DNA of 64,000 nucleotides from positions 537 to 64,536 of the forward strand of contig CAZRDR010000021.1 in NCBI GenBank assembly GCA_964598995.1, given 5' to 3'. A program made the translations under genes and the position numbers. The notes beneath the pieces are model-generated. The model was not told the origin of the DNA. It searched no databases and worked only from the letters and a program-made list of their open reading frames with translations. Source of the DNA: an uncultured Gammaproteobacteria bacterium. GTDB taxonomy: Bacteria; Patescibacteriota; Microgenomatia; Levybacterales; UBA12049. Positions 1 to 59,118 of the stretch are shown here, piece by piece. How positions within the stretch are numbered: position 1 is the stretch's first letter; the number at the start of each line of letters is the position of its first letter.

Positions 1-890
1 ATAGTTTTGTAACGGAGTTCTGAAGGAGTCTTACCAGAAAAACTTGATAGAGTTAATTTCTGAACCAACTGTTCCTTACCAGTTCCAGCCTCACCAACGA
101 GTACGACATTATTATTTTCAAGCTTTGCCAGGCTTTCAATTAACTTTTCGTACTCCTTCTCTCTTCCGACAATTGAGACGTCCTTCTCAGTCAAGCTATT
201 GGTGAAATTGCGGGTATATTTCTTTGTCTCAAGCGTCCAGCCATTAACGAGTACTTCACCGATCCCTCCGCCATTCCCTTCGATATGGAACTTACGGAGT
301 TCTTCCTCATACGGGAACTGCAGCCTCGTCCAAACTAAAATCTGCATGATGTCCTCAGGCTTTAGTTTTTTAGTAAACAACAACTTTGATTGGTCTTCCT
401 CAAGTAGTAAGTAAGCAGCTACGAGGTCCATCGTCGTAACTCTCTTACCCCCTACCTCTTTTGCTAATTTATAAGCAAACTCTGGCAATATAGCATTTTT
501 TAGATCAGATTTAGGCAGATCCTCTCTGGTGATATTTGCCCGTTCCAAGAAGAATCGGACTTGTGGATACTGAAGAAGATCGTGGATGACATGAGACGCC
601 TGCGTGTAATGATAGACAGACGCTAAAGCTGGGAATGTCATGACCTGGAGTGCCTCATGTTCGGTAACCTCGTTTACCGTCTGTTTGGATTGAATCCGCG
701 AAATTTTATACCGATAAAAAATCTCACTCATGATGATCACATTGAGAAGAAATAAAGGAATCGTCGGGGTAGAGTCCATCATCCACGCAAGCAGACTCAC
801 GAGCAGTATCAGGAGTACTAAGGTAATGCGTACAGCTTTACTGAGTGGATTTCGATAAAAACGATAAAGCGTAATAAAATGATAGTCCAT
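1..890 (-). CDS. Partial (C-terminus beyond window) membrane-anchored Clp-N / AAA+ ATPase paralog; start ATG at 890; degenerate Walker A GEAGTGKE
   Basis: Manual translation of the minus strand from the ATG at 890 gives MDYHFITLYRFYRNPLSKAVRITLVLLILLVSLLAWMM..., with an N-terminal hydrophobic anchor. This is followed by a Clp_N-like repeat region and then VGREKEYEKLIESLAKLENNNVVLVGEAGTGKEQLVQKL. That stretch aligns to the ClpA/B/C D1 motif IGRDEEIRRxIQVLxRRTKNNPVLIGEPGVGKT. No stop codon occurs before position 1. It is absent from the ORF track because it is truncated by the window edge. Confidence 0.5.
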   Translation of the reverse strand, partial: MDYHFITLYRFYRNPLSKAVRITLVLLILLVSLLAWMMDSTPTIPLFLLNVIIMSEIFYRYKISRIQSKQTVNEVTEHEALQVMTFPALASVYHYTQASHVIHDLLQYPQVRFFLERANITREDLPKSDLKNAILPEFAYKLAKEVGGKRVTTMDLVAAYLLLEEDQSKLLFTKKLKPEDIMQILVWTRLQFPYEEELRKFHIEGNGGGIGEVLVNGWTLETKKYTRNFTNSLTEKDVSIVGREKEYEKLIESLAKLENNNVVLVGEAGTGKEQLVQKLTLSSFSGKTPSELRYKT

Positions 891-1294: not shown

Positions 1295-4015
1295 TTAATT
1301 AGTAGATGTCGAGGAAGCACTCATGCCATTGGCCGAAGTTGTAACGCCATTTGCCCCATTAGTCGTCTCTTCCTTTAAGAAAGGTGGGTTAAAATCAGGA
1401 GTTGCGAACTGTTGTGCCTGTGGCGCATCAGGCATCGCGTGAGCGTCCCCTGTATCACTTGGAGCTGGAGTCTGAGGCTGTGGCTGATCAGGCTGGGTCA
1501 AAACGTCTTGTTGCGTAGTTTCATCGGCCTTTGCTTCACCTTGAAGAGGTGTGCCACTCCCCTTACCAAAACTGAAAGCTGATTTGGACTCATCGTAGTC
1601 GACCACGATCGTGTCACCTGGAACGAACTGTTTACTGATCAGGAGCATCGCAACTTGGTTCTCGATTGCTGTCTGGATCAGTCGGCGCAGTGGCCTTGCG
1701 CCATAGACTGGATCATAGCCTTCTTGAGCAAGCTGGGCAAGCGCTTTATCTGTTGCTTGCATATGATAGCCTTGTTCTTCAAGTAACTTTGCCGTCTTAG
1801 CAATACCTAGCTTGGCAATCTGGGCCATATCCTGTCGGCGTAATGGCTTAAAGATCACGACGTCGTCAAAGCGATTGAGGAGTTCTGGTCTGAAGAACTT
1901 GCGTAATTCATTAGTTACCATCCCAGCTAGCTCTGAGAATTTCTGCGCGAACTGAGCATCAGTCTGCGCAGCAGCCTGTGCTTCAGCTCCATCACTTAAC
2001 TGCTGCTGGATGAGTGCACTTCCGATATTTGAGGTACAGATAACAATCGTATTCTTAAAAGAGATCGTGTTCCCTTTATTATCTGTTAGGCGTCCATCCT
2101 CAAGTAACTGGAGAAGGATATTAAAGACATCAGGGTGAGCTTTTTCTACCTCATCCAAAAGCACAATCGAGTATGGCTTAGCTCTGACTGCCTCAGTTAA
2201 TTGTCCGCCTTCTTCATAGCCGACATAGCCTGGAGGTGCTCCAATAAGCTTAGCCACTTCGTGCTTTTCCATATATTCCCTCATATCAAGACGGATGAGT
2301 GCGTCATCACGCCCAAAGAGGATCTCGGCTAAGGTTTTAGCTAATTCTGTTTTACCTACTCCAGTCGGCCCAAGAAAAACAAAAGAGGCAATTGGGCGGT
2401 TAGCTGGCGCTAAACCAATACGGCCGCGACGAACTGCTTCAGAGACTGCAGCGACAGCTTCTTGCTGGTCGATAAGACGATCATGGATACGATCTTCAAG
2501 CTTAAGTAACTTAGCACTCTCATCTTCGGTTAACTTCGTGATAGGAATACCAGTCCAATTACTGACGACTTTCTCGATATCAGATTTAACGACAGTACTT
2601 CCTGTTGCTTGAGAGGTAACCGGAGATTCAGCCATGCCATTATTTTCAAGCTTTTTCTCTCCCTCTTTGGTATCTGCTTTCGTCTCAACTGCCTTCGTCG
2701 GACCAATCCGTCCTAACTTAACATCAGCTGCAGCCTCATCGATCAGATCGACTGCTTTATCAGGGAGGTACCGCTCACCAATATATTTTTTAGACAATTT
2801 AACCGCTGCGACTAAGGTGTCATCTGGGATAGTGACGCTATGAAACTTCTCATATTTCGGACGAAGCACCTTTAGCATCTCAACAGCTGCTTCCTCAGAC
2901 GGCTCGTCACAAAGGATAGGCTGAAAACGTCTTTCAAAAGCTTTATCTTTCTCAAAATACTTTCGGTATTCAGCAGTAGTCGTAGTACCAATGATTTGCA
3001 TCTGACCACGAGCCAGATACGGCTTTACGATATTTGAAGCGTCTAACGCGCCATCGGTATCACCTGCACCGATAAGTGTATGAATCTCATCGATGAAGAG
3101 AATTATTTTGCCCTCACTGGCAGTTGTTTCATTAATAATACTCTTGAGACGCTCCTCAAACTCCCCTCGATGACTCGCACCTGCGACCATTGATGCCAGA
3201 TCTAATTGATAGATCTTTTTGTCTTTCAAATCCGCTGGAACAGAGCCGCTGACGATCGCCTCAGCTAACCCTTCAACGATCGCTGTCTTTCCGACACCAG
3301 CTTCACCGATGATGATGGGATTATTTTTAGTACGGCGTAACAAGACATGGATAAGGCGATCGACTTCTTTTTCTCGTCCAGCAATCGGATCTAATTTGCC
3401 CTGGCGTGCTTGTTCGGTAAGATCAATTGCATAGGTCTCAAGAACAGACTTTTTACCCGTAGTATAGGTCGGATTTTTAGATAGCTTAGTTTGGATTTCT
3501 TCTTTCTTAACCCCTTTCTCATTAAGCATCTTTGAAACATCTGAATTGCTATTACAGAACGCAACTAATAGATCTTCAGGAGAAATGAAGGAAACACCGC
3601 GAGCCTGGACATCTCGGTATGCCTGTTCGAAAAGCTGAGTCGTTGCGTCACTCAAAGTCGCCTGCCCACTGTAGGTCCCTAAGACTTCTTTACCTTGTAC
3701 TTCTTTAGCAAGTGCAGCTACATCGACAGAGAAGCCACTAAGTAACTTATAAATATCCTCATCATACAAAAGACCAAGCAATAACTGCTCTGGATCGATT
3801 TTCTCATGGCGAACGCGTTTCGCTTCATCTTGCGCGTGGTGAAGGACCTGAGTCGTGCGTGCATCTAAGTGAGAGAGTGCTGAGATGTTTTGGCGAGAAA
3901 CAGGATCCATGCGTGAAGTAGGCATGCTTGATGCTTGAGGCTGATCTTGAGGAGGAACCTGCTGTCCTACAGGCGCAACAGGATCCTTATGCTGATTAAA
4001 AAGATTTCCTAACAT
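1295..4015 (-). CDS. clpC: ClpC/ClpB-family two-ring AAA+ chaperone with short middle domain, Q/P-rich N- and C-terminal low-complexity extensions
   Basis: It has a Clp_N-like N-domain, the D1 Walker [16 protein letters not shown] and the D2 Walker [18 protein letters not shown]. Only about 50 aa separate LIDEAAADV from WTGIPITKL, so the M-domain is short (ClpC/ClpA-like, not the long ClpB coiled coil). I could find no [ILV]GF ClpP-docking tripeptide in D2. The C-terminal roughly 110 aa are Q/P/T/A-rich low complexity. Confidence 0.85.
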
Positions 4016-4087
4016 GGGCAGAAAACACGAGTATACTTCGCGCTATAATTATTTAATACAAATTCTCAAGAAAGAGCAAGTGTTAAT

Positions 4088-7000
4088 CTACTCAGGCTTA
4101 TCTAATGGTATTGCTACTGCTTGCTCTTCAGTTTGAGATTTAGCGCAATTAGCTACATTCACGAGCGACTCTGGTTCGTTCGCTCCAGATAGCGTCGCGA
4201 GAGCCATCACAGCTGCTTCTTTTTTCGCTTTGAGATAACCAAGTACTTCATCATGGGAGAAGCCACCCAAAAGTAAGAAAGGTAGGATATCACCAACTAA
4301 CTTCATACCTTGCGTGATATTCTCTTCGGATTCTGATGTGAGGAGATTAATCACATTTTCTGTCTCTGACTTCTCCTCAGTAACCCATTCTTCTCTACTT
4401 TGTTCTTTATTTTCGCGAGTTTTTGGTACATCACCCTTGATAAATCGTTCATAAAACATCTTCTTGATCGCCTCATAGTCATCAAGGGATACTTTCTGCA
4501 CGTTATTCTGCTTAGGTAGTCGAGCCGGCTTAACTTTATGCTGTTGTTTTGCAAGCCTATCGTTAACAAGTTTTACCAGAACCTTAGCAAATGGATCGCC
4601 TTTCTTTTCGAGTTGTTGATAGATAGTGGTTATCTCCTGTTGAGTAGTACTTGGAATAGAGATAAATTGCTGCATAATCTGCGCAGCATTTTCGTTTTGT
4701 GTGCGGTTTTCAAGTAATAACACTCGAGCTTTATTTGCTGCAACAGGAGTGATCTCCCCATGTGCTAATGAAAGCAATGTCGATGAAACATTGTCAGAAG
4801 TTTTTTCTCTTTCGAGCGTTTCTTTAAGCGTAGAATAAACTTCTCTCAACTTGTCATCAGTGATCTGCAGAGGATTATCGAGATACTGTAGAAACTTCAT
4901 AGTACTCTGAGTCTGCTCAGCTGAAACTTTATCCATTACAGTCATGATTGTTGCAGCTGATTCATTGCCTGACTGACGTGACTTTACGAGTTCTTCTCGA
5001 GCAGAACGGAATTCTTGTTGAAGCGGGAGGGCAATAAGAGATGGATCAAGTACTCCCTGAAGTGTGTTCATAATTGCTGTTGGGGTATCCTCAATCAGTG
5101 GAGCCTCTGAACTTGCGGTCAAAGCCATAAGTGTTGCTGCGGATTGGTCACCTTGTGCTGTTCTCGTCTGGAGTGATTTCTTCAGGGAATTGAGTTGTGC
5201 TGACTCATCTGCAGTCAGACTCAAGTTTTGTAGAGACTTACTGAGTACCCGTGCGAGATCTCTCATACTCCCTTGCTGGCTAGACTGAGTCTCAAATGAG
5301 GCAACATCTCTAAGCGTAGGGACTGTGAGCTTAATCTGTGGAGCCGTCTGTAACGTTTGGTCAGCTTCAGATACAGTTACCTCTGCTGCCTGCATCGTCT
5401 GAGTGTTTGCAGTCTTTTGGGCAGTATTCTTCACTGAAAGAAGCGTTTGTTCATCTGACTGCTGAAGTGTCGTGAGGACACTCTTTCCAGCTTCTAATTT
5501 AGCTTTAAGATATCCAGTTATCTCCTCTTTAGAAAAGCCGCCTAAGAGAAGGAATGGTAAGATTTCACCAACTCTATCCATTCCCATTTGGACTTGGTTT
5601 GGATCACTTGAGGCTAGGAGATTAATCGTATCGCTGATATCAGTCGTCTCTTTCGTAATCCAGGCTTCACGAGTGGTATTAGCTGGTGGTTCTGCGCTCG
5701 AATAGTTATCAGACCAAAGTTTCTTTACACTTTCATAATCCTCAAGTGAAACTTGCTGAATTCGATTCTTGGTCGGAATAGTAGCTGAAGTCACACTCGC
5801 TGCTGCTGGATGAAGTTGTTTAGTAAAGGCCCTCAGGAGTGACGTCGCTAACGTATTATTAGTAGACTTTGCCTCGATAAGTTTTTTGTAGAGAGACTCA
5901 AGCCCTGCCTGTGTCTCTGGTTGAACTGAAGCCACTTCATCTTTAAGATAAATTGCTAACTCATCACCATGAGAAGCATTAGTATTGATGACTGCAATCA
6001 AGTTAACAATACTCTCCTGAGTGAGTGGAGCACGTAAAGTCTTGAGTACTAGTTGGGCTGTCGTATTTCTATCTTCACTTGCTTGGGCTACTCGCTCAAC
6101 CAACTTCTTATAATGCATTTGCTCTGATGCTGTAGATAAATTCTCAGGATTACTTAACCTCGTTAACAATGTCTCTGCGTCAGTCTGATAATTAAGCTTT
6201 AGCTTGGTAGCTTCGTTAGTAATCTCAACAGCGAGTGGGTCATTGGATCTCGTTAGTACCGCAAGCTTGTCATGCAGCTCCTGGAAATACTGAACGGTAT
6301 TTTTTTCTCCAGCAATTTCGGGAGTGACAAGAGCAAGCATGGTTGTTGCAAATTGACTACGTTCACTTTCAGACAGCTTACTTGGCAACGTCTCAAGCAA
6401 TTGTGTTGCACTCAGGATCATCGTAGCCAGCGGGTTGTTTTCACTACTTTCCTTGATAACTTCATCGCGAATCTGAACCATTCTTTCTCGCTCTTTAGTA
6501 TCGGTTATCCTTTCAGGATGAGACAGATGCTCAAGGACATTCTTAATACTGGTGATCTGTGATGACTCTTTCGTTTCTGACTTCGTCTCAAAGCGAGCAA
6601 TATCGGTAAGCTTAGGTACAGACAACTCAGTCTTTTTCAGAAGAGTTACATCAAATGGTGCATTTGGAGCAGCTGTCTGATTGACTACCGTATTCGTTTC
6701 ATCATTATTTGTCGTATTCGTAGTTGAGTAATTGTAGTTATTTACCACTGTCGTTGGCGCGCTAATTGAAGTATCTTTCTCATCGATTTCAGCTGAAGCT
6801 GCCAAGTGTTTTGTCTCAGTCTTTACTGCCTGCTTCGTTTCAACAAGAGTATCTTCTTCATCTTGCTGAGTTGTCGTATCCTCAAGAACGTTCTTGCCTG
6901 CTTCTATTTTAGCTTTGAGATAGGCGATCATCTCAGTCTGTGAGAACCCGCCGATGAGTAGGAATGGTAAGATATCTGAGACCTGCTGCATTCCTTGTTC

Positions 7001-9385
7001 AACTTCTTGGGGATTACTCGATGAGAGTAAATTCACTGTCTCTTGGATACTTGCGATGTCACTCTGGATCCATTCTTTACGACCTGATTGGCCGACAGGG
7101 ACTTCAACATTTTTATAATTTTCTTTCCACATCTTCTTAACCGCTTCATAATCCTCCAGGGACACCTGCTGGATACGGTTAACCTGAGGCAGAGTACCTG
7201 ATTTCAATTTGGCTGTGGCAGAGACAGGAGCAACTGCAGCTTTTTGTGATGTCAGCGTCTTTAACAGGAGCGTTGCGAGTGGATCGCCTTTTTTACTTGC
7301 TTCCTCAAGTGTCGTATGAAGTTGCTCCATGTCTTTCTCTGTTGTCTTATCAGAGGTAGAGACTGTCTTGAGAAGCTCTGCAGCTAATGGATTACCCTGT
7401 GCTTTGGCCTCAAGTAGCTGATCCTGGATCTTTCTAACCTGTTCAGGACTTGAAGCGTTATCGAGATTTTGGGCAAGCATCGTTGCTAACGGATTACCTG
7501 ATTTACTCGCAGCCATAATCTTCTCGCGAAGTGTCGTGTAGTTAGCCTTTTCACTTGTATTGGTTACTTTCTCTGGGTGCGAAATTCCCTGTAGAAGCTG
7601 CTGGAGGTTCGTTACTTGGTTAGTCGTGTAGTTATTAACATTATTAAGAATAGTCGTCGCGAACTGATTGCCTTCCTTTGCGGCTTTACCCAACTCTTGT
7701 TTGATCTCAACTATTTTCTGCTGGTCACGCTTAGAGGTGATGAGTGTCGGCTGCGCTAAGTGCTGTACGAGACTCTGCATCTGCTGGGAGACTGAAGAAG
7801 CCGATGACTGCGATGAGTAACTCGTATAGGTCGTGGCTGCATTAAGTATGTTCGTCGCGACAGAATTGCCTTTCTGACTCTCAGTCACTAACTTTTCTTT
7901 GATAACGCGCAGACGATCTCGCTCGGTGCTTGAGGCGACTGTGGTTGGATTCGCGATATTGATAAGAGTCTGCTTCATGCGCTCAATCTCACGCTGTGAG
8001 TTAACGTCATGACTCAGACGAGTCGACTCATAGCGAGCGATATCACGCATCGTCGGAATTGAAAGATTGGTCAGACGTGAAATTTCTGTCTGGTTATTGC
8101 GAGTTACGAGCGTTGGGCGTTCTACCGTTCGGCTGGCTGTAGTAGGAATATCTCTCGCAAGTCCCGTCGTCTTAGGGATTTCAAACCGCTTCGCAAATGG
8201 AAGAGCCCTTGCCAGTCCAGTCGTAGCTGGTGGAGGAGTTCCTGGAGGGAGCGGCGTAAGAGGAGCTACAGGTCTATTATTAAGCATCGTATAGACCTGT
8301 TTGATCAGAGGGTTATTCTGATAATTAAAGGCCATCATGTAGTCTAAAAAGATCTGCAGCAGAATAAATGGCAAAATAATCACCGTCCAGAGCATCAGGA
8401 GCGCAACTAGGTAGAGAGCGAAAGTATCAGGCAAATTCACACTATTATTAAGACCGATGTTCTGACCTGGGCCACCGAGTAAGATGTTAATAGCGGTCGG
8501 GTAGACAGCATCTGCTGGATTATTTACTCCTGAAAAATTAAAAATGAGCGGCAACCCTGAATGCCAGAGGCGAACCAGACCAGATAAAAATACAGCAAAG
8601 AGAGGCGCATAAAGTAACCATCTGAAGAATTCCCCCACCCAAATTTTGGCAGTATTTCGCAGTGGGTAAAACAAGAGAAGTAGTGGGAAGATGGGCGAGA
8701 CGATGATCAAGAACCACAGGATGATTTTACGGAAAATCAGGAGGATGACCATCGCATAATAGGTAAAGGCTGTAAGTTTTACTAGCAGTAATGAGATAAA
8801 GGCAGACTCATCAAAAGATTGGCCGAAAACCCGCAGTCCCTGAAACGACTGGTAATTAAAGCCAACATATAAAAGATCTTTTTGGGAAATAATTTGTCCG
8901 GCCTGGTTACGCAGGAAAAATCCTTGGAAGATATCAATAATTTGATAGAGAAACTGCACCAGCGAGAATGAAAAAGTCACAAGTAATACCACGAGGAAAA
9001 ATCGCGGCAGGAAGCGTTTGGCAGATAGACTTCTGCCTCGCGTTATGATCAAGATAAATGCTGTAACTAAAATAACGAAGAGAAAAAGTGCATAGACTAT
9101 TCGCTGAATCGTCTGCCAGAGTGGAACAAGCGGATTGTTACTATACGCACTATCTGATGCCCATTTATAGTCTCTTAGCGTCCAGTCCAGTAACTGACCA
9201 GAACGAGCAGCATTTTTACCAATAGTCGTAACCTCAGGGTCTTTAATCCATGAGCCCTCTTGAGGCAAATCTTGAGCTTGGACAGTATCGACCGCTGTAG
9301 TGTCAGCAGCGTGAATAATAGCTGTCGATAGCGGGCTGAGTAAAATCCCTAATACCAATAAAATCGAAACTAAATATTTTTTCAT
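4088..9385 (-). CDS. Giant (1765 aa) secreted/polytopic membrane protein: signal peptide + ~6 TM VirB6/TrbL-like N-terminal domain (aa ~1-375) followed by a ~1400-aa hydrophilic region built from three long tandem repeats
   Basis: A single 5.3-kb ORF. The N-terminus is MKKYLVSILLVLGILLSPLSTAIIHA, a signal peptide, followed by multiple long hydrophobic helices (IVYALFLFVILVTAFILII, FLVVLLVTFSFSLVQFLYQII, FISLLLVKLTAFTYYAMVILLIF, ILWFLIIVSPIFPLLLLFYPL, FALYLVALLMLWTVIILPFILLQIF). Next comes a Pro-rich linker (PVAPLTPLPPGTPPPATTG). The rest is three repeats, each beginning (I/V)P(T/K)(M/L)(R/T)D(I/V)A(R/S)(Y/F)E and ending RIQQVSLEDYEAVKKMW...ILPFLL(I/L)GGFS...YLKAK(I/L)EAGK. Its start codon overlaps the stop of the upstream pilin-like gene (TAATG). 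Confidence 0.8.
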   Translation of the reverse strand: MKKYLVSILLVLGILLSPLSTAIIHAADTTAVDTVQAQDLPQEGSWIKDPEVTTIGKNAARSGQLLDWTLRDYKWASDSAYSNNPLVPLWQTIQRIVYALFLFVILVTAFILIITRGRSLSAKRFLPRFFLVVLLVTFSFSLVQFLYQIIDIFQGFFLRNQAGQIISQKDLLYVGFNYQSFQGLRVFGQSFDESAFISLLLVKLTAFTYYAMVILLIFRKIILWFLIIVSPIFPLLLLFYPLRNTAKIWVGEFFRWLLYAPLFAVFLSGLVRLWHSGLPLIFNFSGVNNPADAVYPTAINILLGGPGQNIGLNNSVNLPDTFALYLVALLMLWTVIILPFILLQIFLDYMMAFNYQNNPLIKQVYTMLNNRPVAPLTPLPPGTPPPATTGLARALPFAKRFEIPKTTGLARDIPTTASRTVERPTLVTRNNQTEISRLTNLSIPTMRDIARYESTRLSHDVNSQREIERMKQTLINIANPTTVASSTERDRLRVIKEKLVTESQKGNSVATNILNAATTYTSYSSQSSASSVSQQMQSLVQHLAQPTLITSKRDQQKIVEIKQELGKAAKEGNQFATTILNNVNNYTTNQVTNLQQLLQGISHPEKVTNTSEKANYTTLREKIMAASKSGNPLATMLAQNLDNASSPEQVRKIQDQLLEAKAQGNPLAAELLKTVSTSDKTTEKDMEQLHTTLEEASKKGDPLATLLLKTLTSQKAAVAPVSATAKLKSGTLPQVNRIQQVSLEDYEAVKKMWKENYKNVEVPVGQSGRKEWIQSDIASIQETVNLLSSSNPQEVEQGMQQVSDILPFLLIGGFSQTEMIAYLKAKIEAGKNVLEDTTTQQDEEDTLVETKQAVKTETKHLAASAEIDEKDTSISAPTTVVNNYNYSTTNTTNNDETNTVVNQTAAPNAPFDVTLLKKTELSVPKLTDIARFETKSETKESSQITSIKNVLEHLSHPERITDTKERERMVQIRDEVIKESSENNPLATMILSATQLLETLPSKLSESERSQFATTMLALVTPEIAGEKNTVQYFQELHDKLAVLTRSNDPLAVEITNEATKLKLNYQTDAETLLTRLSNPENLSTASEQMHYKKLVERVAQASEDRNTTAQLVLKTLRAPLTQESIVNLIAVINTNASHGDELAIYLKDEVASVQPETQAGLESLYKKLIEAKSTNNTLATSLLRAFTKQLHPAAASVTSATIPTKNRIQQVSLEDYESVKKLWSDNYSSAEPPANTTREAWITKETTDISDTINLLASSDPNQVQMGMDRVGEILPFLLLGGFSKEEITGYLKAKLEAGKSVLTTLQQSDEQTLLSVKNTAQKTANTQTMQAAEVTVSEADQTLQTAPQIKLTVPTLRDVASFETQSSQQGSMRDLARVLSKSLQNLSLTADESAQLNSLKKSLQTRTAQGDQSAATLMALTASSEAPLIEDTPTAIMNTLQGVLDPSLIALPLQQEFRSAREELVKSRQSGNESAATIMTVMDKVSAEQTQSTMKFLQYLDNPLQITDDKLREVYSTLKETLEREKTSDNVSSTLLSLAHGEITPVAANKARVLLLENRTQNENAAQIMQQFISIPSTTQQEITTIYQQLEKKGDPFAKVLVKLVNDRLAKQQHKVKPARLPKQNNVQKVSLDDYEAIKKMFYERFIKGDVPKTRENKEQSREEWVTEEKSETENVINLLTSESEENITQGMKLVGDILPFLLLGGFSHDEVLGYLKAKKEAAVMALATLSGANEPESLVNVANCAKSQTEEQAVAIPLDKPE

Positions 9386-9798
9386 TAATGACTAACTCCT
9401 GGCAGCTGCAAAATGTCTACCAAGAAGACTTCGATGAATATAAAGCCGAAAATCGCGAGGAGCAGTCCTAAAACTGCATAAAAAATATAACTTTTACCGA
9501 CATTTACTTTTTCTGGTTTACCTTCTGACGTAAGGAGTGTATAGCCGCCGATAATGATAAAGACTAAGGCAACACCGCCGATAAGTCCCAGCCCAATACC
9601 ATAAAAACTCGTGACGAACTGGATAGGATCTGTAGGCAAACACCCAACTTCAGTCATCGCCTGATCTGAGGGACAACTCGGAGTTGGAGTAGGGACATCT
9701 GCAGCATAGGTAAGCTGAGAGGTAAGTACTAATAAGCAGAATGTTACAAGCACAAGGCTTGTGACCATTCGAATGATGTGGGCAGACATCTTTTTCAT
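9385..9798 (-). CDS. VirB2/TrbC-like pilin candidate (137 aa): long signal peptide, two Cys, two hydrophobic helices separated by a short charged loop
   Basis: MKKMSAHIIRMVTSLVLVTFCLLVLTSQLTYA|ADVP looks like a signal peptide with an A-x-A-type cleavage site. The mature part has hydrophobic helix 1 FYGIGLGLIGGVALVFIIIGGYTLL, a loop TSEGKPEKVNVGKS, and helix 2 YIFYAVLGLLLAIFGFIFIEVFLV. This is the classic T4SS VirB2/TrbC pilin topology. It is translationally coupled to the giant VirB6-like gene. Confidence 0.5.
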   Translation of the reverse strand: MKKMSAHIIRMVTSLVLVTFCLLVLTSQLTYAADVPTPTPSCPSDQAMTEVGCLPTDPIQFVTSFYGIGLGLIGGVALVFIIIGGYTLLTSEGKPEKVNVGKSYIFYAVLGLLLAIFGFIFIEVFLVDILQLPGVSH

Positions 9799-9804
9799 AG
9801 CAGG

Positions 9805-9822
9805 AAAAACCCGAAAACGGGC
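9805..9822 (-). terminator. Rho-independent terminator downstream of dnaJ-like gene (minus strand reads GCCCGTTTTCGGGTTTTT)
   Basis: A GC stem CCCG/CGGG with a 4-nt loop, followed by T5 on the minus strand. It lies about 60 nt after the dnaJ stop at 9884 and immediately upstream of the pilin start. Confidence 0.5.
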
Positions 9823-9883
9823 TATACTCCTGTTAAAAGTATATGGAGTTTATAGATAAATTACAATTGAAGAAGATTAGTTC

Positions 9884-10756
9884 TTAAAACCACTTTTTCT
9901 TCGAGGATTCGGTATCGAACTGTTCAAGTAATTCTTTTTGCTTTTTACTCACGGTTTTTGGGATCACGACTTTTATTTTTACATAATGGTCACCCATGCC
10001 TGAGCCGCGGAGTCGCTGGATGCCTTTGCCGCGTAAGCGAATCAAGCTTTCAGGCTGCGTACCGGAAGGAATTTTAATCTTTACTGGACCTTGGACAGTC
10101 TCGACACTAATCTCACTGCCGAGGACTGCCTGTGGGAAGGTAATCTCCTCCTCAGAGATAACATCTGAACCCTCACGCTGAAATTTTTTATCTGATGCGA
10201 CGTCAAACACGATGTCATAAGTATCAAACCTCATCCTCGTTCCAGAATCAACTCCAGCTGGAACTTTGATCTTTTGTTTTTTACCATCGATGGTGACCTC
10301 TTTTTCTGTTCCGCTCACAGCCTCAGTAAATGAAAGCGAAAGAGAGTAGACCGGCCGACGTGATCGTGACCCAAAAGGTGAAGCACCGCCAAAAAACTGC
10401 TCGAAAATTTCAAAAGGATCTGAAAATCCGCCGAAGTCAAAGCCCTGGCCATTAGTCGTGTACGTGTACTGTCCGCCAAAACCACCAAAAGGCCCCTGAC
10501 CACCAAATGGTCCGCCAGCCCCAGCGCCTCCTTGCTCAAATGCTGCAGCTCCGAACTGGTCATACGTCTGACGCTTCTGTGGATCAGACAAGACCTCATA
10601 GGCTTTAGTAATTTCTTTGAACTTCTCTTCGCCTTCTTTAGTCTTATTACGATCAGGATGATACTGAAGCGCTAACTTACGATAGGATTTCTTAATCTCA
10701 TCCTGTGTTGCCGACTTAGTTACACCTAATAATGAATAATAATCTTGATTTGCCAT
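9884..10756 (-). CDS. dnaJ: DnaJ-class co-chaperone, type II / CbpA-like (J-domain + G/F-rich region + C-terminal substrate-binding domains, no CxxCxGxG zinc finger)
   Basis: The N-terminal [32 protein letters not shown] contains the HPD motif. A long Gly/Phe-rich linker follows. The four Cys-rich zinc-finger repeats are absent. It is the last gene of the hrcA-grpE-dnaK operon. Confidence 0.8.
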
Positions 10757-10757
10757 A

Positions 10758-11525
10758 TTATTTTTTAGCTCTTTTACTTAACTGAGTATATCGATCAAAT
10801 GCACGTGGACCGATGACAGTATGAGCAGTGTTTAACCCTTCAAACCTTCCATTTGGGTAGCCAACTGTTACTTTTGTTTCACGCTTAGTAAGAGCGTCTC
10901 TAAGATCATTATTATACCATGTCCTGCCTCCACCTAAGGTATAAAAGTGAGCATCAGATGAACCCACTGCACCACCTAACTTATCTCCGTATGAACTAAG
11001 ATTTGCAGAATAATAAGCGAGCGCTTGGTCGTTATTGCCGTTAAAACGTGGACTGAATTCAAGCCCCGCGTTATAGACCTCAAATCCATCAAAATACACA
11101 TAAGGATTTTTGCTATTTATGACTAGCTGAATACCCGTCTCTCCTATACCCTTAACAAGAACGGCGAATGGATGAACTGCTATTGCCAAACCATCCTGAT
11201 CGTGAATTGCTTCAAGTGTCCAATCGATATCTTTACCTTGAGGAATATCTGATTTGAGGTAAAGCCCAAGGACATGACCACCACTGGTAGAGATCTCTTC
11301 GCCTGGAATCAGTTCAGTTTCAGGAGAATAGACTTGCGCATAACCTTTCCCAAGAATTCCAGGTAAAAGAAAATTGTGATCTGTTACTCCAACAGCGCAG
11401 ATACCAAGTTCCCGAGCCACTTCGGTGATCTCATCGAGATTCATTTTCCCATCAGAAAATACCCCGTGGGTGTGAAGGTCTGCACATTTAGTTACTGTGT
11501 CTACTGATGAATAAATTTCTCTCAT
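10758..11525 (-). CDS. PHP-domain (polymerase/histidinol-phosphatase-like) metal-dependent phosphoesterase
   Basis: The N-terminal [38 protein letters not shown] matches the PHP H-x-H and D-H metal-binding motifs. It sits between dnaK and dnaJ with 1-2 nt gaps. Confidence 0.65.
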
Positions 11526-11590
11526 AAGGAATTAATCATAAAAAAGCCCCGTCACGAACGAGGCATAGTTTTATAGTTATCTATCTATTA

Positions 11591-13486
11591 TTACTCAACG
11601 ACTTCGCCTTCAACAGGCTCGTCTTTGTTTTTATCAGAATCCTTCTTCTCCTCTGATGTTCCTGTATTTTCAGATGAAGCATCGGTCGAAGTATTAGCAG
11701 CATTCATCGCCTCACCAATTTTCATAAGAGTATCTGACAGCTCTTTGGTCTTTGCTTCAATTTCATCTTTACTGCCAGATTCCAAAACATCTTTGAGAGC
11801 TTTAATCTTGTCCTCAACTTCTTTCTTAGTATCCTCTTGTACTTTATCCCCAGCATCTTTGAGAGCTTTCTCGGCTGTAAAGATAAGTGAATCAGCTTGG
11901 TTACGTGCCTCGACCTGAGCTTTTTTCTCTTCATCTTCTTTTGCATGCATCTCGGCTTCTTTCGTCATGCGCTCGACTTCATCCTTAGACAGGCCAGTTG
12001 ACCCCTGGATCTTAATACTCTGTTCCTTACCACTTGCTTTATCCTTAGCTTTAACACTGAGGATTCCACTTGCATCGATATCGAAAGTGACTTCGACCTG
12101 AGGCATACCACGAGGTGCTGGTGGGATACCATCTAAGATAAATCGACCGAGTGACTTGTTATCTGCAGCCATAGGACGCTCTCCCTGGAGAACATTAATT
12201 TCAACTTGTGTCTGGTTATCAGCTGCTGTTGAGAAGACCTGTGACTTACTGGTCGGGATAGTCGTATTGCGTGAGATAAGAGGAGTTGATACGCCGCCTA
12301 GTGTCTCAAGACCAAGAGTTAATGGAGTAACGTCTAGAAGTAACACATCTTTGACGTCTCCTGAGAGAACGCCTCCCTGAACAGCCGCTCCGATTGCGAC
12401 GACTTCATCTGGGTTAACTGATTTGTTAGGCTCTTTACCAAAGAACTTAGATACCGTCTCGACAATCTTTGGCATGCGAGTCATTCCGCCAACGAGTACG
12501 ATTTCATCTATTGCTGACTTCTCAACACCCGCATCTTTGAGCGCTAACTCAACAGGCTTTAATGTCTTTTGGACGAGATCATCGACGAGCTGTTCTAATT
12601 TCGCACGAGTTAAGGTCATCGTGAGATGAAGTGGACCATTTTCACCTTGGGTAATAAATGGCTGATTGATTTGTGCTTCTTGAGAAGTTGAGAGCTCGAT
12701 CTTTGCTTTTTCTGCTGATTCTTTCAGACGCTGAAGAGCCTGGGCATCTTTACGAAGATCGATATTATTTTCTTTCTTAAACTCATCTGCGAGGTAATCG
12801 ATGATGACCTGGTCGAAGTCGTCTCCGCCGAGGTGAGTATCACCATTGGTTGATTTAACTTCATAGACGCCATCACCAAGCTCCAAAATTGAGATATCGA
12901 ATGTTCCGCCTCCAAGGTCATAGACTGCGATCGTATGTGCATTTTGCTTATCGAGTCCGTAGGCGAGTGCTGCAGCGGTAGGCTCATTAATAATTCGCTT
13001 TACATCAAGTCCAGCGATCTCTCCAGCTTGTTTGGTAGCTTGGCGCTGACTGTCGTCAAAGTAGGCGGGAACAGTAATAACTGCTTCAGTAACTTTTTCT
13101 CCTAAATATGCCTCTGCATCAGATTTGATTTTCTGGAGGATCATAGCAGATACTTCTTGAGGAGTGTAGGTCTTACCATCAACTTCAACTACAGCCATAT
13201 CATCACGGCCTGCTTTGACTGTATATGGCAGCCATTTCATATCACGCTGGACTGACTCGTCATGGAACTTCTTACCCATCAGACGTTTTACTGAAAAAAT
13301 CGTCTCTTTAGGCTTTAAGACCATCTGACGCTTGGCCACGTCCCCTACGACATGCGTCTTTGGATCAACAACTGATGGGATAACATTTCTTCCCTCAGCT
13401 GAGTGGATGACCTTTGGTGATCCACCCTCCATCACAGCCATAGCTGAATTTGTTGTACCTAAATCAATTCCAATTATTTTTGCCAT
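11591..13486 (-). CDS. dnaK: Hsp70 chaperone DnaK
   Basis: Hsp70 signatures [18 protein letters not shown] and [10 protein letters not shown] are present. It is 631 aa and lies in an operon with grpE and hrcA. Confidence 0.95.
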
Positions 13487-13487
13487 A

Positions 13488-13994
13488 TTAATTACTTTCT
13501 TTCTGACCGTTTCCTACGACGACTTGCGCCGCGCGTAAGAGTTTGTCATGCAGCAAGTATCCTGTGCGTACTTCCTGTATAACAACTCCATCCTTACCCG
13601 GACCGGTAGTCACGACTTCCATAGTTACTGGATCAAAATCCTTTCCAATAGTCTCGATCTTGGTTACTCCATCAGATTTTAATGTCTGAAGAAATTGATC
13701 GGTAACTATTTTTAAAGTTCTGTTCTCTTCGTGCTGTTGAGCAAGTATTAATGTATCCAAAATTGGTAAAAATCTCAACAGTAATTCCTTGTTACTTGAT
13801 TGAATTAGAACCAATCGTTCTTCCCGTACTCTTTTCTCAAGATTCTGATAATCTGCGATCGCTCTTAAGCGAGCATTCTCAGCAATCTGTAATTTCTCCT
13901 CGCACTCATCGTGACTCTGCTCTTCGCGTTCGACCTCATTTACTGTCTCTCCAATCTCTTCTTCTGGTTTTGTCGTTTTCTTATCCATTACCAT
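13488..13994 (-). CDS. grpE: Nucleotide exchange factor GrpE
   Basis: It is 168 aa with a coiled-coil N-terminus and a GrpE-like C-terminus. Its position between hrcA and dnaK is canonical. Confidence 0.8.
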
Positions 13995-14728
13995 CCTTTT
14001 GCAACTGTCTCGATGAGGTCACCAAAGTAACGAACAGTCGGTACTACCATTGTATAGTTAAGTCGCACTGGACCAATTACACCGATCTGTCCTGCTCCAT
14101 GCATTGGCGTCTCGTACTGGGTATAGACAAAACTATACGGACCATGCAGTCTCTGACCTAAGTCTTCACCCATCAGAACATGAATGTCTTCGCTGTCAGA
14201 ACTAAATCTGCTACAGAGATCGAAGAAATAATCTTCCTCATCAAGTGTCGCTAAGAGCGTCTTGGTGATAACGATATCATAAAATTCAGGCATTTCTAAG
14301 ATATTTGAATAGCATGAGATGAAGACATCTCCTTCACTAGTTGTCGCGATAGCGAGTGTCCTTGTCTTATTTGCTAACGAGCGGGTTGCTTCCTTTAAGA
14401 AGCGCTGCATCTTTTCTCGGTAATCCCAAACTTTTTCTTTAAGCGCTACTTCCTCAACAGTTGATAGCTCTTTTTCCTTCATCAGCTGAGTTACATAGAA
14501 CTTCATACCGATAGGAGTAGGAACACGTCCAGCTGAAGAGTGAGGCTTTTTAAGATAGCCAAACTCAGAGAGTCTGACCATTTCATTTCGAATAGTCGCA
14601 GGAGAAGCACTAAGATTGTATTTCTTCTCAAGCGTCTCCGAACCTACCGGTTCAGCCGTATTGATGTATTCCTCAATAATAGCTTTAAGAATTTCAATCT
14701 GTCGTTGGGTTAGATTGTGCATATGCAT
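13988..14728 (-). CDS. hrcA: Heat-inducible transcription repressor HrcA
   Basis: It has an N-terminal winged-helix region (LTQRQIEILKAIIEEYINTAEPVGSETL) and HrcA length. It is the first gene of the grpE-dnaK operon, with a CIRCE-like operator just upstream. Confidence 0.85.
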   Translation of the reverse strand: MHMHNLTQRQIEILKAIIEEYINTAEPVGSETLEKKYNLSASPATIRNEMVRLSEFGYLKKPHSSAGRVPTPIGMKFYVTQLMKEKELSTVEEVALKEKVWDYREKMQRFLKEATRSLANKTRTLAIATTSEGDVFISCYSNILEMPEFYDIVITKTLLATLDEEDYFFDLCSRFSSDSEDIHVLMGEDLGQRLHGPYSFVYTQYETPMHGAGQIGVIGPVRLNYTMVVPTVRYFGDLIETVAKGW

Positions 14729-14740
14729 TACCGGACAAGA

Positions 14741-14767
14741 TTAGCAGTATGATAACAAGAGTGCTAG
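14741..14767 (-). promoter_or_regulatory. CIRCE-like HrcA operator (TTAGCAgta-N9-GAGTGCTAg vs consensus TTAGCACTC-N9-GAGTGCTAA)
   Basis: An imperfect inverted repeat with a 9-nt spacer, 13-39 nt upstream of the hrcA start codon (14728). Confidence 0.6.
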
Positions 14768-14843
14768 GACTTGTCAAGCCCATAATTGGAATATTTTTGA
14801 AGCTAGTGTTGTAAGAGTACAGTAAATTCTTTATGCTTTATCT

Positions 14844-44706: not shown

Positions 44707-46002
44707 CTATTTTAATGATTCGTAAGAGGCAAGAAGAAATTTACCTTGATAAGATCCAAGCGGGATAAGCCCTTCCGGTATCCCAAAGGCAGTGTTTGCA
44801 ATTTCATGTTCCTCTCCAGATTTAACATTAAATATTTTGTAGTTTTTTGACTCATAATCAATTCCAAATAACTTGTCTCCTACAAAAATACTATAGTCGG
44901 TAAAACCACTATTTGGCAATGCAGGATCCAAAGTTGAGGTAGGTATGTGAAAGAGATATATAGAATCTTTGGTGAGAATAGCTAGAATATCCTTATTATC
45001 ATTCAGTAGGATATTCTTAACTTTCCCCTTAATTTGGCTAAGGTCAAACAATGGAGTAGTTACCTTTGAAGTCACTTTCATCAAATTGATTTTACCATCG
45101 GCAAAAGTGTAATCTTCAAAGGAGTACTCCTCAGGTGTTTGTTTAAGCTCTGCGAGAATAATGCTATCTTCCTTTGGTAAGGATCCTATAAATCGCGGGT
45201 TGTTATTACATCCCATTCCTGTCTTAGTCAACTCTTGATTACCAGATGTGGTAACTCGATAAATCTCACCATAGCCACCGCAGCCATCTCCCCCAAATGA
45301 CCCGATAATCTGACCTGCACTAGACGTAAACAGATACTCAGCATCCCCATAAATAACTGGATCTATCGTCGTAAGTTCTGTCTCTTTATTTGATGTTGTA
45401 TCAAAAAGACGTACTGATACTTTCTGGCTATGCTCATAATCTAAGGCTTTGGTTGTGTAAAAGACTTCATTATTGTCACTTATTACAGAACCGGGTCCAT
45501 AACCCGAGGCAAAAGTAACTGGTGAGACTCTAGCTTGGCTAGATGTTCTAAGGTCAAATTTATATAGCGTATTCTCACTAATAAAGTAAATGCTGTTATT
45601 ATTATCCCACGTATGAAATAATCTGGGATTACTTTCGGATTTATAACCTCCTAAGAGGATAAATTTCTCACCATCAAATGAATAGATCTTCATATTTGCA
45701 TCCTTAGGTACGGTAACGGTTGGGACTACTGTTGGAGTTATTTCTTTACTGACTTGAGTTGGAATAGGCACCGTAGCTGACTTCAATTTCTGAGAAGCCG
45801 TATTTACTATAAGGAGCATGCCTGCAATTCCAAGTATTAACACTGCCACAAATCCGATTAAGAGAAATTTCTTTCGTGACCTATGAGGAGGTGGCGGTAC
45901 AGAAGGCTGAGAAGGAATTTGAGCTATTTGAGGCTGCTGTTCTAATGAAGGTTGAGGTTGCTCCACATACTCATCTTTACAGACATTAACAGGTAAAGTC
46001 AA
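44707..46002 (-). CDS. Membrane-anchored hypothetical protein with Pro/Gln-rich cytoplasmic N-terminus and large extracytoplasmic domain (possible beta-propeller)
   Basis: QPQPSLEQQPQIAQIPSQPSVPPPPHRSRKK, then a TM helix (FLLIGFVAVLILGIAGMLLIV), then a 370-aa domain with repeated YxF/D-G segments. Confidence 0.4.
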   Translation of the reverse strand: MTLPVNVCKDEYVEQPQPSLEQQPQIAQIPSQPSVPPPPHRSRKKFLLIGFVAVLILGIAGMLLIVNTASQKLKSATVPIPTQVSKEITPTVVPTVTVPKDANMKIYSFDGEKFILLGGYKSESNPRLFHTWDNNNSIYFISENTLYKFDLRTSSQARVSPVTFASGYGPGSVISDNNEVFYTTKALDYEHSQKVSVRLFDTTSNKETELTTIDPVIYGDAEYLFTSSAGQIIGSFGGDGCGGYGEIYRVTTSGNQELTKTGMGCNNNPRFIGSLPKEDSIILAELKQTPEEYSFEDYTFADGKINLMKVTSKVTTPLFDLSQIKGKVKNILLNDNKDILAILTKDSIYLFHIPTSTLDPALPNSGFTDYSIFVGDKLFGIDYESKNYKIFNVKSGEEHEIANTAFGIPEGLIPLGSYQGKFLLASYESLK

Positions 46003-59062: not shown

Positions 59063-59118
59063 GAGATAAGTATAGCAAAATCTCTTTAAGATTAACAGTT
59101 AAGAGTTTTGAGTGCTAA

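What the first reader, a model, noticed from the sequence alone, without database searches (positions are those of the whole stretch)
4150..8070. Three ~430-470-aa tandem repeats inside the giant protein, each with a conserved start motif and an ILPFLLLGGFS...YLKAKxEAGK end module
On the minus strand the repeat starts can be read at about 8020-8070 (IPTMRDIARYESTRL), 6590-6632 (VPKLTDIARFETKSE) and 5285-5335 (VPTLRDVASFETQSS). The end modules (RIQQVSLEDYEAVKKMW ... DILPFLL(I/L)GGFS ... YLKAK(I/L)EAGK) lie at about 6940-7010, 5520-5600 and 4240-4290. Between them are mini-repeats of the form G(N/D)PLAT(M/L)L.

The repeats have diverged considerably (perhaps 35-50% identity by eye), so this looks like an ancient triplication under selection rather than a recent slippage. 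The short hydrophobic LPFLLLGGFS element inside an otherwise polar repeat could be a re-entrant or amphipathic membrane-contact segment. I do not recognise the module as any named domain.
Basis: seen in the sequence. Interest (0 to 1): 0.5.

Follow-up and report, generated by a model that had tools for sequence, protein, structure and literature searches.

The report
Repeated arms on a VirB6-like protein
The three repeats are real: they are three copies of an undescribed all-helical module that forms the long tail of a type-IV-secretion-like (VirB6-like) membrane protein found only in one group of ultra-small "candidate phyla radiation" bacteria, where the gene always sits inside the heat-shock chaperone operon.

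Summary
ORF 4088-9385(-), 1765 aa, ends in three tandem units (aa 443-922, 923-1354, 1355-1765) that are 29-35% identical (E 1e-34 to 1e-72).

The LPFLLLGGFS element lies inside the folded head and is too short and too weakly hydrophobic to span a membrane. The re-entrant reading is therefore not supported.

The N-terminus has a signal peptide and about six hydrophobic helices that weakly match TrbL/VirB6. The gene is translationally coupled to a VirB2-like pilin gene. The protein is best read as an "extended VirB6".

The head occurs in only 337 of 1.84 billion representative proteins, always with this membrane domain, in 1-5 copies. Named source genomes are almost all Levybacteria.

In about 70 species the pair lies in hrcA-grpE-dnaK-(dnaJ)-pilin-giant-clpB.

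Most likely function (inferred, not shown): extracytoplasmic arms displaying conserved binding heads. This is a new variant of a known kind, of moderate interest.

The parts
4088..9385 (-). Giant ORF, 1765 aa: signal peptide, VirB6/TrbL-like hydrophobic domain, Pro/Thr/Arg-rich linker, then three tandem units
   Evidence: The identical 1765-aa protein is found in three other assemblies.
9308..9385 (-). Predicted signal peptide (aa 1-26, ...IIHA|AD)
   Evidence: Sequence; hydropathy 2.42. The cleavage site is inferred by eye.
8342..9109 (-). Hydrophobic domain with about six helices (aa 93-348). The Pfam TrbL/VirB6 match covers aa 107-269.
   Evidence: 23 of 40 family members hit only PF04610. 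This domain is 52-80% identical across species.
8060..8305 (-). Pro/Thr/Arg-rich linker (aa 361-442)
   Evidence: Composition: P 14.6%, T 17.1%, R 9.8%.
6620..8059 (-). Repeat unit R1 (aa 443-922). Mini-repeat zone is about nt 7253-7954. An S/T/N-rich linker sits at the C-terminal end of the unit.
   Evidence: AlphaFold2 model of aa 443-838 has pLDDT 80.9.
5324..6619 (-). Repeat unit R2 (aa 923-1354). Mini-repeat zone is about nt 5828-6523.
4091..5323 (-). Repeat unit R3 (aa 1355-1765), the most diverged unit. Mini-repeat zone is about nt 4565-5236.
6890..7183 (-). End module (head) 1, aa 735-832
   Evidence: HMM hits. AlphaFold2 pLDDT 87.7, helical bundle.
5480..5770 (-). End module (head) 2, aa 1206-1302
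4205..4510 (-). End module (head) 3, aa 1626-1727
9385..9798 (-). VirB2-like T4SS pilin gene (137 aa: signal peptide, Cys-x10-Cys segment, two hydrophobic helices). Its stop codon overlaps the start codon of the giant ORF (TAATG).
   Evidence: PF18895 E 5.6e-5; NCBIfam Mbov_0395 pilin-like E 1.8e-6; sequence.
1295..4015 (-). clpB, 72 nt downstream of the giant ORF on the same strand
   Evidence: The adjacency is conserved.
9884..14728 (-). hrcA-grpE-dnaK-PHP-dnaJ, directly upstream on the same strand
   Evidence: The synteny is conserved.
14741..14777 (-). Strong sigma-70-type promoter (TTGACA-17-TATCAT, 14777->14749) overlapping a CIRCE-like inverted repeat (14741-14767), upstream of hrcA

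Best explanation
**What it is.** The three repeats are three copies of an undescribed, all-alpha module of about 390 aa. Together they form the hydrophilic C-terminal extension of an "extended VirB6" protein. That protein has a signal peptide and a polytopic TrbL/VirB6-like domain. Its gene is translationally coupled to a VirB2-like pilin gene, in a Levybacteria (Microgenomatia, CPR/Patescibacteria) genome.

**Anatomy of one unit (shown):**
- a conserved start helix, (I/V)PT(M/L)RDIAxFE;
- about five helical hairpins whose turn is the GNPLA motif;
- a flexible linker;
- a ~100-aa helical-bundle head, which is by far the most conserved part.

**Mechanism (inferred, not shown).** The tail most likely lies outside the cytoplasmic membrane. 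If this protein is pentameric like R388 TrwI/VirB6, the tail would project from that platform as flexible arms. The helical hairpins would act as spacers. The heads would be binding modules for a conserved partner, such as the pilin or pilus, the organism's own envelope, or a conserved host-surface feature.

**Copy number.** It ranges from 1 to 5 in the family and is 3 here. It would set the reach and valency of the arms (3 heads x 5 subunits = 15 here). The middle unit appears to be a lineage-specific addition or loss, because two-unit relatives have only R1-type and R3-type units.
For: **Shown: repeats and fold.**
- Unit similarity.
- Mini-repeats are present in all three units.
- Confident all-alpha models: head pLDDT 87.7; whole unit pLDDT 80.9, with a disordered 277-296 linker and pTM 0.46, meaning the arm and head are flexibly joined.

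**Shown: distribution.**
- The head profile finds only 337 of 1.84e9 representative proteins, 312 of them at E < 1e-10.
- Every full-length hit carries the same membrane domain, with 1-5 heads.
- Named source genomes are almost all Levybacteria.

**Shown: link to VirB6 and T4SS.**
- PF04610 is the only Pfam family hit, by the window protein (E 1.7e-5) and by 23 of 40 relatives.
- Some relatives carry precomputed PF04610 or PF19590 TrbL_3.
- The adjacent pilin-like gene matches PF18895 and NF045849. The median gap between the pilin gene and the giant ORF is about 3 nt in about 70 species.

**Inferred: tail is extracytoplasmic.**
- A signal peptide followed by six hydrophobic helices puts the C-terminus outside.
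- Only the TM1-TM2 and TM3-TM4 loops are strongly positive.
- The R388-type VirB6 topology also puts the C-terminus outside: two N-proximal membrane helices, with the bulk of the protein in the periplasm (PMC12857230).
- S+T+N in the tail is 25%, like the exported proteins of this window (26%) and unlike the cytoplasmic ones (15.7%).
- The linkers are Pro/Thr-rich and S/T/N-rich.

**Inferred: heads bind a conserved partner.** Head conservation is 57% mean column identity, with invariant P76, G81, G82, Y91 and K95. The arms are much less conserved.
Against: - The VirB6 assignment is marginal by sequence: 24-25.1 bits against the Pfam cut-off of 25.9. The profile match to TrwI (7o3v_F) is not significant, E 6.7.
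- No VirB4, VirD4 or other T4SS gene is present in the 64-kb window.
- Topology is not settled. TM5 is weakly hydrophobic (mean 1.38). A five-helix model like that of A. tumefaciens VirB6 would put the tail in the cytoplasm. The linker after the last helix is net positive (7.6 K+R against 3.2 D+E).
- A host-contact surface would usually be variable, whereas the heads are highly conserved.
- No binding partner has been identified.
- I could not inspect the model coordinates to measure burial of the LPFLL segment.
Confidence: 0.5

Rival explanations
1. The tail is cytoplasmic. It is a multivalent scaffold whose heads dock cytoplasmic partners at the base of the membrane channel. Candidate partners are the chaperones or AAA+ proteins encoded around the gene (DnaK/DnaJ, ClpB), or a T4SS ATPase or substrate.
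For: - The pilin and giant genes are embedded between dnaJ (or dnaK) and clpB, with short gaps, in about 70 species.
- ClpB is also adjacent to pilin plus short VirB6-like genes outside the hrcA operon (L083, L087).
- The linker after the last hydrophobic helix is net positive, and TM5 is weak.
- Reporter-fusion work on A. tumefaciens, Brucella and H. pylori VirB6 homologues places the C-terminus in the cytoplasm (summarised in PMC7648143).
- High conservation of the heads fits a conserved intracellular partner.
Against: - The composition of the tail resembles exported proteins of this window, not cytoplasmic ones.
- The linkers are Pro/Thr-rich and S/T/N-rich.
- A signal peptide plus six helices predicts the C-terminus outside.
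- The head shows no similarity to J-domains or any other known chaperone-interaction domain.
- Gene adjacency alone does not show physical interaction.
Confidence: 0.25
2. One reading: the LPFLLLGGFS element is a re-entrant or amphipathic segment that contacts a membrane, so the repeats tether the tail to a membrane at three points.
For: - It is the most hydrophobic stretch in an otherwise polar tail.
- P76, G81 and G82 are invariant and L75, F77, L78 and F83 nearly so.
- I could not inspect the model coordinates, so partial exposure of the FLLI mini-helix is not excluded.
Against: - The maximum 19-residue hydropathy there is 1.36, 0.94 and 1.16 in the three copies, all below the 1.6 threshold.
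- Only about 8 hydrophobic residues are involved.
- In the model the element is a short helix plus a GG turn inside the head, with local pLDDT about 89-96.
Confidence: 0.07
3. The repeats are a neutral, expandable filler with no specific function beyond length, like low-complexity coiled-coil spacers in many giant CPR proteins.
For: - Copy number (1-5) and arm length vary widely. Head-to-head spacing ranges from about 270 to about 1060 aa.
- The arms are poorly conserved.
Against: - The heads are strongly conserved across species, with invariant residues.
- Positional orthology of the units is kept in relatives that are 42-50% identical.
- Folded, confident models were obtained.
- At least one head is present in every full-length family member.
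Confidence: 0.08

Closest known systems
Extended VirB6-like proteins of Rickettsiales (Anaplasma phagocytophilum VirB6-3 and VirB6-4; Rickettsia RvhB6 paralogues)
   Same: - A TrbL/VirB6-type polytopic domain is followed by a very large hydrophilic C-terminal extension made of tandem repeats whose number differs between lineages.
- The genes are associated with VirB2-type pilin genes.
- The Anaplasma C-terminal repeats are surface exposed (PMC3556328, PMC7648143).
   Different: - The Anaplasma repeats are short (e.g. 41-mers, or DNA units of 231-405 bp), acidic and near-identical. They vary between strains.
- Here the units are about 400-aa folded helical modules that are only 29-35% identical. 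Their number is the same in the three full-length members of the 90%-identity cluster.
- There is no sequence similarity to the Anaplasma repeats.
- The host organism is a monoderm CPR bacterium.
- The gene lies in the heat-shock operon, not a virB operon.
F-plasmid TraG and SXT TraG (VirB6-like N-terminus plus a large C-terminal domain)
   Same: - A polytopic VirB6-like N-terminal domain is fused to a large hydrophilic C-terminal domain.
- That domain is described as acting in mating-pair formation and entry exclusion (PMC7648143); its periplasmic location and cell-to-cell contact role are from my own knowledge.
   Different: - No homology to the TraG C-terminal domain was detected.
- The tail here is repetitive and purely helical.
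- No conjugation genes lie nearby.
Patescibacteria T4SS (VirB4, VirB3/PrgI, VirB6, TrsD and VirB2-like pilin arrays; Southlakia epibionticum, TM7x)
   Same: - VirB2-like pilin genes (PF18895) sit next to a VirB6-like gene in a CPR genome.
- Pilin arrays are common in Microgenomatia (PMC12102498).
   Different: - That study found VirB6 homologues scarce in Microgenomatia and mostly near virB4.
- Here the pair is far from any virB4 (none in 64 kb).
- The VirB6-like protein carries 1-5 C-terminal modules not described there.
Generic up-down four-helix bundles (HPt domains, FliS flagellin chaperone)
   Different: - No conserved His as in HPt domains.
- The resemblance is at the level of a common small fold, not a family.

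Membership tests
TrbL/VirB6 (PF04610; T4SS inner-membrane/stalk subunit) | Polytopic protein with five or more hydrophobic alpha-helices | tested here: met
   Six hydrophobic segments at aa 93-348 after a signal peptide. They are conserved in 177 aligned relatives.
TrbL/VirB6 (PF04610; T4SS inner-membrane/stalk subunit) | Sequence match to the family profile above Pfam's gathering score | tested here: inconclusive
   - 24.0 to 25.1 bits against a cut-off of 25.9, E 1.7e-5 to 3.7e-5.
- It is the only family hit, and 23 of 40 relatives hit it.
- Some relatives carry precomputed PF04610 or PF19590.
- The profile match to TrwI (7o3v_F) covers the equivalent region, but E is 6.7.
TrbL/VirB6 (PF04610; T4SS inner-membrane/stalk subunit) | Encoded together with other T4SS genes (VirB4 at the least) | tested here: not met
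   - Only a VirB2-like pilin gene is adjacent.
- None of the larger ORFs scanned in the 64-kb window (19 of about 54, including every ORF long enough to be VirB4 or VirD4) is VirB4- or VirD4-like.
- The rest of the genome could not be searched.
TrbL/VirB6 (PF04610; T4SS inner-membrane/stalk subunit) | Pentameric assembly that serves as a platform for VirB2/VirB5 | not testable with these tools
   This needs multimer modelling or cryo-EM.
Extended VirB6 subtype | Large hydrophilic central or C-terminal domain added to the VirB6 core | tested here: met
   The 1323-aa hydrophilic tail has no 19-residue hydropathy window at or above 1.6. The definition is taken from PMC12857230.
Anaplasma-type VirB6 C-terminal tandem repeats | Near-identical short tandem repeats whose number varies between strains | tested here: not met
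   - Units are 29-35% identical.
- DNA similarity is 69-71% and only over 100 nt.
- The three full-length members of the 90%-identity cluster are all 1765 aa.
Named helical-repeat or cell-wall-binding domains (HEAT/ARM/TPR/Sel1/MA3; SLH, LysM, PG_binding) | Significant match to the Pfam profile | tested here: not met
   - Only MA3 appears, at E 0.003 and below its cut-off, in one unit.
- No family is matched by more than 3 of the 34 units scanned, and that one only at E 0.023.
- The units are all-alpha, unlike SLH or LysM folds.
T4SS pilin (PF18895 / VirB2-like), for the upstream gene | Small protein with a signal peptide and two hydrophobic helices, plus a profile match | tested here: inconclusive
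   - The architecture is met.
- PF18895 scores 23.6 bits against a cut-off of 26.6.
- NF045849 scores 27.5 bits against a cut-off of 40.
- The orthologue in L002 has a precomputed PF18895 hit.

The most novel reading that the evidence does not exclude
In Microgenomatia, the VirB2-like pilin, the VirB6-like protein and ClpB (with DnaK and DnaJ) form a functional unit that is independent of VirB4. It would be a heat-shock-regulated surface-filament or protein-transfer device in which an AAA+ unfoldase feeds or extracts subunits through the VirB6-like platform. The repeated heads of the tail would be its docking sites.
Probability: 0.07. Interest if true: 0.85.

Novelty: new variant of a known kind. 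Interest (0 to 1): 0.48.

Why it matters
- A recent survey reported VirB6 homologues as scarce in Microgenomatia and attributed this to extreme divergence (PMC12102498). This family looks like the missing VirB6-type component of Levybacteria. It would show that the component is encoded away from virB4, paired with a pilin gene.
- What the large hydrophilic domains of "extended VirB6" proteins do is an acknowledged open question (PMC12857230). Here the extension is a folded, modular, well-conserved unit with a natural copy-number series of 1 to 5. That makes it a tractable case for structure and binding studies.
- The invariant placement between dnaK/dnaJ and clpB suggests that envelope or pilus functions and the heat-shock regulon are co-regulated in these epibiont-like bacteria. 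I found no paper describing this.

Tried and rejected
- **Whole-protein self-BLAST.** It returned only the identity hit, so the protein had to be cut into units.
- **Search for a known domain in the units.** All negative or generic:
  - Pfam on the protein and on 34 units.
  - NCBIfam: only spurious AAC(6') hits far below cut-off.
  - PHROGs.
  - PDB sequence profile.
  - BFVD.
- **afdb50 fold search.** The library was not available.
- **Is the head a derived pair of mini-repeats?** hhalign gives probability 0.5%, so this was rejected.
- **Cysteine depletion as a marker of export.** The family tails have 0.02% Cys, but exported-like proteins of this window have as much Cys as cytoplasmic ones (0.70 against 0.69%). 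This was not usable. S/T/N content was used instead.
- **Profile of the membrane domain against PDB.** The TrwI match is only E 6.7, so it gives no independent confirmation.
- **Paralogue in the window.** None found.
- **Metagenome scan with the Daviesbacteria short homologue**, meant to test the ClpB link more widely. It gave only 3 loci and was uninformative.
- **Literature search** for Microgenomat* + VirB2 + ClpB: no paper.
Full report
**1. Observation**

The region lies inside one minus-strand ORF, 4088-9385, encoding 1765 aa.
- The three start motifs are at aa 443, 923 and 1355.
- The three ILPFLL...YLKAK elements are at aa 805/822, 1275/1292 and 1700/1717.
- Cutting the protein at the start motifs gives units of 480, 432 and 411 aa.
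- Pairwise BLASTP: R1/R2 35% over 409 aa (E 2.5e-72), R1/R3 29% over 432 aa (E 8e-52), R2/R3 35% over 189 aa (E 7e-34). None of the units resembles the N-terminal 442 aa.
- A three-way alignment shows conservation concentrated in the last ~100 aa of each unit.
- At the DNA level only that part is still recognisable, at 69-71% over 100 nt.

The repeat is therefore real, far beyond chance, and old.

**2. Anatomy of a unit**

Mini-repeats:
- Iterated HMM searches find about five mini-repeats of 35-60 aa per unit. Their pattern is "..P..(I/V)(T/S)....E....L...L..A...G(N/D)PLA..LL".
- An HMM trained only on the five R1 copies finds 5 hits of at least 5 bits in the helical parts of R2+R3. In 200 shuffles the mean is 0.01 such hits.
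- The consensus of 34 units from different species shows five GN/GD turns, with nearly invariant Pro caps, Gly and Ala.

Whole-unit model:
- AlphaFold2 on that alignment gives an all-alpha model for aa 443-838 (mean pLDDT 80.9).
- It has helix pairs joined by the GNPLA turns, a low-confidence linker at residues 277-296, and then the end module.
- pTM is 0.46, which indicates that the arm and the head are not rigidly packed.

End module (head):
- Modelled from 67 diverse copies, it is a confident small helical bundle (pLDDT 87.7, pTM 0.78). It has four long helices (12-28, 38-56, 61-74, 85-103) plus a four-residue helix at 77-80.
- In the model, "ILPFLLIGGFS" is the end of the third long helix, a Pro, a four-residue helix (FLLI), a GG turn, and the N-cap of the last helix.
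- Its best 19-residue hydropathy is 1.36, 0.94 and 1.16 in the three copies, below the 1.6 that detects every N-terminal hydrophobic helix.
- It is thus part of a folded soluble domain, not a membrane segment.
- The head is unrelated to the mini-repeat (hhalign probability 0.5%).

**3. No known relative of the unit**

- Pfam gives nothing consistent for the protein or for 34 units.
- NCBIfam and PHROGs give nothing meaningful.
- A profile of the head finds no PDB sequence (best E 0.064).
- BFVD gives nothing at E of 0.001 or better.

**4. What the giant protein is**

- The N-terminus has a signal peptide (aa 1-26) and six hydrophobic helices (aa 93-348).
- Pfam's only hit there is TrbL/VirB6 (PF04610), at 24-25.1 bits against a cut-off of 25.9.
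- 23 of 40 orthologous domains hit the same family and no other.
- Several relatives carry precomputed PF04610 or PF19590 (TrbL_3).
- A family profile touches TrwI/VirB6 of R388 in the equivalent region, but not significantly (E 6.7).
- The gene immediately upstream (9385-9798) encodes a 137-aa protein with a signal peptide and two hydrophobic helices. It matches T4SS_pilin PF18895 (E 5.6e-5) and the Mbov_0395 pilin-like conjugal transfer family (E 1.8e-6).
- The pilin gene's stop codon overlaps the giant's start codon (TAATG).
- The membrane domain is 52-80% identical across species, much more conserved than the tail.

I therefore read the protein as an "extended VirB6". That is a recognised subtype whose added hydrophilic domains have no known role (PMC12857230). 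The sequence evidence for VirB6 membership is marginal, and no VirB4 or VirD4 is present in the window.

**5. Distribution and copy number**

- The whole protein finds relatives named Patescibacteria or Levybacteria.
- The head profile, scored against 1.84 billion representative proteins, finds only 337 (312 at E < 1e-10).
- Every full-length hit also has the membrane domain. Hits without it are short fragments.
- Among the 239 proteins collected, head copy number is 1 (93 proteins), 2 (106), 3 (35), 4 (3) or 5 (2).
- Head-to-head spacing ranges from about 270 to about 1060 aa, so arm length varies too.
- In one-per-species genomes the named hits are almost all Levybacteria/Levyibacteriota, plus single Gottesmanbacteria and "Microgenomates" records and a few records titled as other groups (Saccharimonadales, Parcubacteria and non-CPR names). 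Most species there have a single-unit protein of 700-870 aa.
- R1, R2 and R3 each match best the same-position unit of three-unit relatives (P0003, P0009; for P0004 and P0016 the middle head is roughly equally close to R1 and R2). Two-unit relatives carry R1-type and R3-type units. The triplication therefore predates these species, and the middle unit was gained or lost in a sub-lineage.
- The three full-length members of the 90%-identity cluster are all 1765 aa. I saw no strain-level variation.

**6. Context**

- The gene order is hrcA-grpE-dnaK-PHP-dnaJ-pilin-giant-clpB, all on the minus strand.
- Upstream of hrcA there is a strong promoter overlapping a CIRCE-like inverted repeat.
- A terminator-like hairpin follows dnaK, and a weak promoter-like site precedes the pilin gene.
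- The same order holds in relatives and in nearly all of 79 species-level loci. In some, dnaJ has moved downstream so that the pilin gene follows dnaK.
- Median gaps are about 3 nt between pilin and giant, about 50 nt between giant and clpB, and under 100 nt between dnaJ or dnaK and pilin.
- Shorter homologues of the membrane domain without any unit exist outside this operon.
  - In a Daviesbacteria contig, clpB is followed by several T4SS_pilin genes and a 475-aa VirB6-like gene.
  - In another contig the order is pilin-like, VirB6-like, a 238-aa gene, then ClpB.
  - Other homologues have a pilin but no ClpB, or neither.
- I found no paper on this association.

**7. Where is the tail?**

Not settled.

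For an extracytoplasmic tail:
- A signal peptide plus six helices predicts the C-terminus outside.
- Only the TM1-TM2 and TM3-TM4 loops are strongly positive.
- The R388 structure places all but two N-proximal VirB6 helices in the periplasm (PMC12857230).
- S+T+N in the tail is 25%. Exported-like proteins of this window have 26% and cytoplasmic ones 15.7%.
- The linkers are Pro/Thr-rich and S/T/N-rich.
- The Anaplasma VirB6-3 and VirB6-4 repeat tails are surface exposed (PMC7648143).

Against:
- TM5 is weak.
- The linker after TM6 is net positive.
- Reporter-fusion topologies of short VirB6 proteins put the C-terminus in the cytoplasm (PMC7648143).

I put about two to one on an extracytoplasmic tail.

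**8. Mechanism**

The anatomy is shown; the function is inferred.
- The most likely reading is a VirB6-like membrane platform paired with its pilin. Its C-terminal tail would form flexible helical arms that display one to five conserved heads.
- Strong conservation of the heads points to a conserved ligand rather than a variable host receptor.
- Copy number and arm length would tune reach and valency.
- The main rival is a cytoplasmic scaffold for the neighbouring chaperones.
- The membrane re-entrant idea and a purely neutral filler are unlikely.

**9. Novelty**

- The kind (extended VirB6 with a repetitive C-terminal extension) is known from Rickettsiales and from F and SXT TraG.
- The module itself is not described. 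The same is true of its restriction to Levybacteria, its 1-5 copy series and its fixed place in the heat-shock operon.
- Verdict: a new variant of a known kind, of moderate interest.

Noticed in passing
window 1295-14777 (-); loci L001-L082: The pilin and VirB6-like genes are embedded in hrcA-grpE-dnaK-(PHP)-dnaJ-pilin-giant-clpB. This order is kept, with short intergenic gaps, in about 70 Levybacteria species. In some species dnaJ has moved downstream and the pilin gene follows dnaK directly.
   Followed up: partly
L083:1887-8391 and L087:7700-12582: Outside the hrcA operon, ClpB is again adjacent to pilin-like genes plus a short VirB6-like gene that has no C-terminal units. In the Daviesbacteria contig L083 the order is clpB, several PF18895 pilin genes, then a 475-aa VirB6-like gene. 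In L087 the order is pilin-like, a 471-aa VirB6-like gene, a 238-aa gene, then ClpB. This is a possible functional link between ClpB and the pilin/VirB6-like pair. No paper on it was found.
   Followed up: partly
window 14741-14777: A CIRCE-like inverted repeat (TTAGCAGTA-N9-GAGTGCTAG, 3 mismatches to consensus) overlaps a near-consensus promoter (TTGACA-17-TATCAT with TG) just upstream of hrcA. A second, weaker CIRCE-like match lies at 59092-59118.
   Followed up: partly
window 11546-11564 (-): A terminator-like hairpin (8 pairs plus a T-run) lies between dnaK and the PHP-domain gene. It is possibly an internal attenuator of the operon. A weak promoter-like site at 9866->9838 precedes the pilin gene.
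   Followed up: no
window 6-482 (-): A second Clp/Hsp100-type ATPase gene fragment sits at the left edge of the window (28% identity to ClpB aa 130-266). Relatives also carry a second AAA+ Clp gene downstream of clpB (L001, L002).
   Followed up: no
L084:10001-13865: In a nanopore-derived contig the giant gene is split into a 381-aa membrane part and a 911-aa tail ORF that overlap by 17 nt. This is probably an assembly frameshift, but a genuinely split gene is not excluded.
   Followed up: no
window 9385-9798 (-): The pilin-like protein has two cysteines 11 residues apart (CPSDQAMTEVGC) just after the predicted signal-peptide cleavage site, suggesting a disulfide loop. The 173,000 residues of family tails contain almost no cysteine (0.02%).
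   Followed up: partly
loci L004-L082 (record titles): Many species-representative MAG records that carry this Levybacteria-type locus are titled 'uncultured Gammaproteobacteria bacterium'. Others are titled Limnocylindrales, Acidiferrales or Xanthomonadales. These titles look like placeholder or wrong taxonomy.
   Followed up: no
P0135 (3266 aa), P0006 (2790 aa), P0023 (2370 aa): These are extreme family members. P0135 has three heads spaced about 1000 aa apart, so its arms are very long. P0006 and P0023 have five heads each. These expansions look independent of the one in the window.
   Followed up: no
window 17601-19112 (+) and 44707-46002 (-): Two ORFs of 503 aa and 431 aa have no Pfam match at E of 1e-5 or better.
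   Followed up: no
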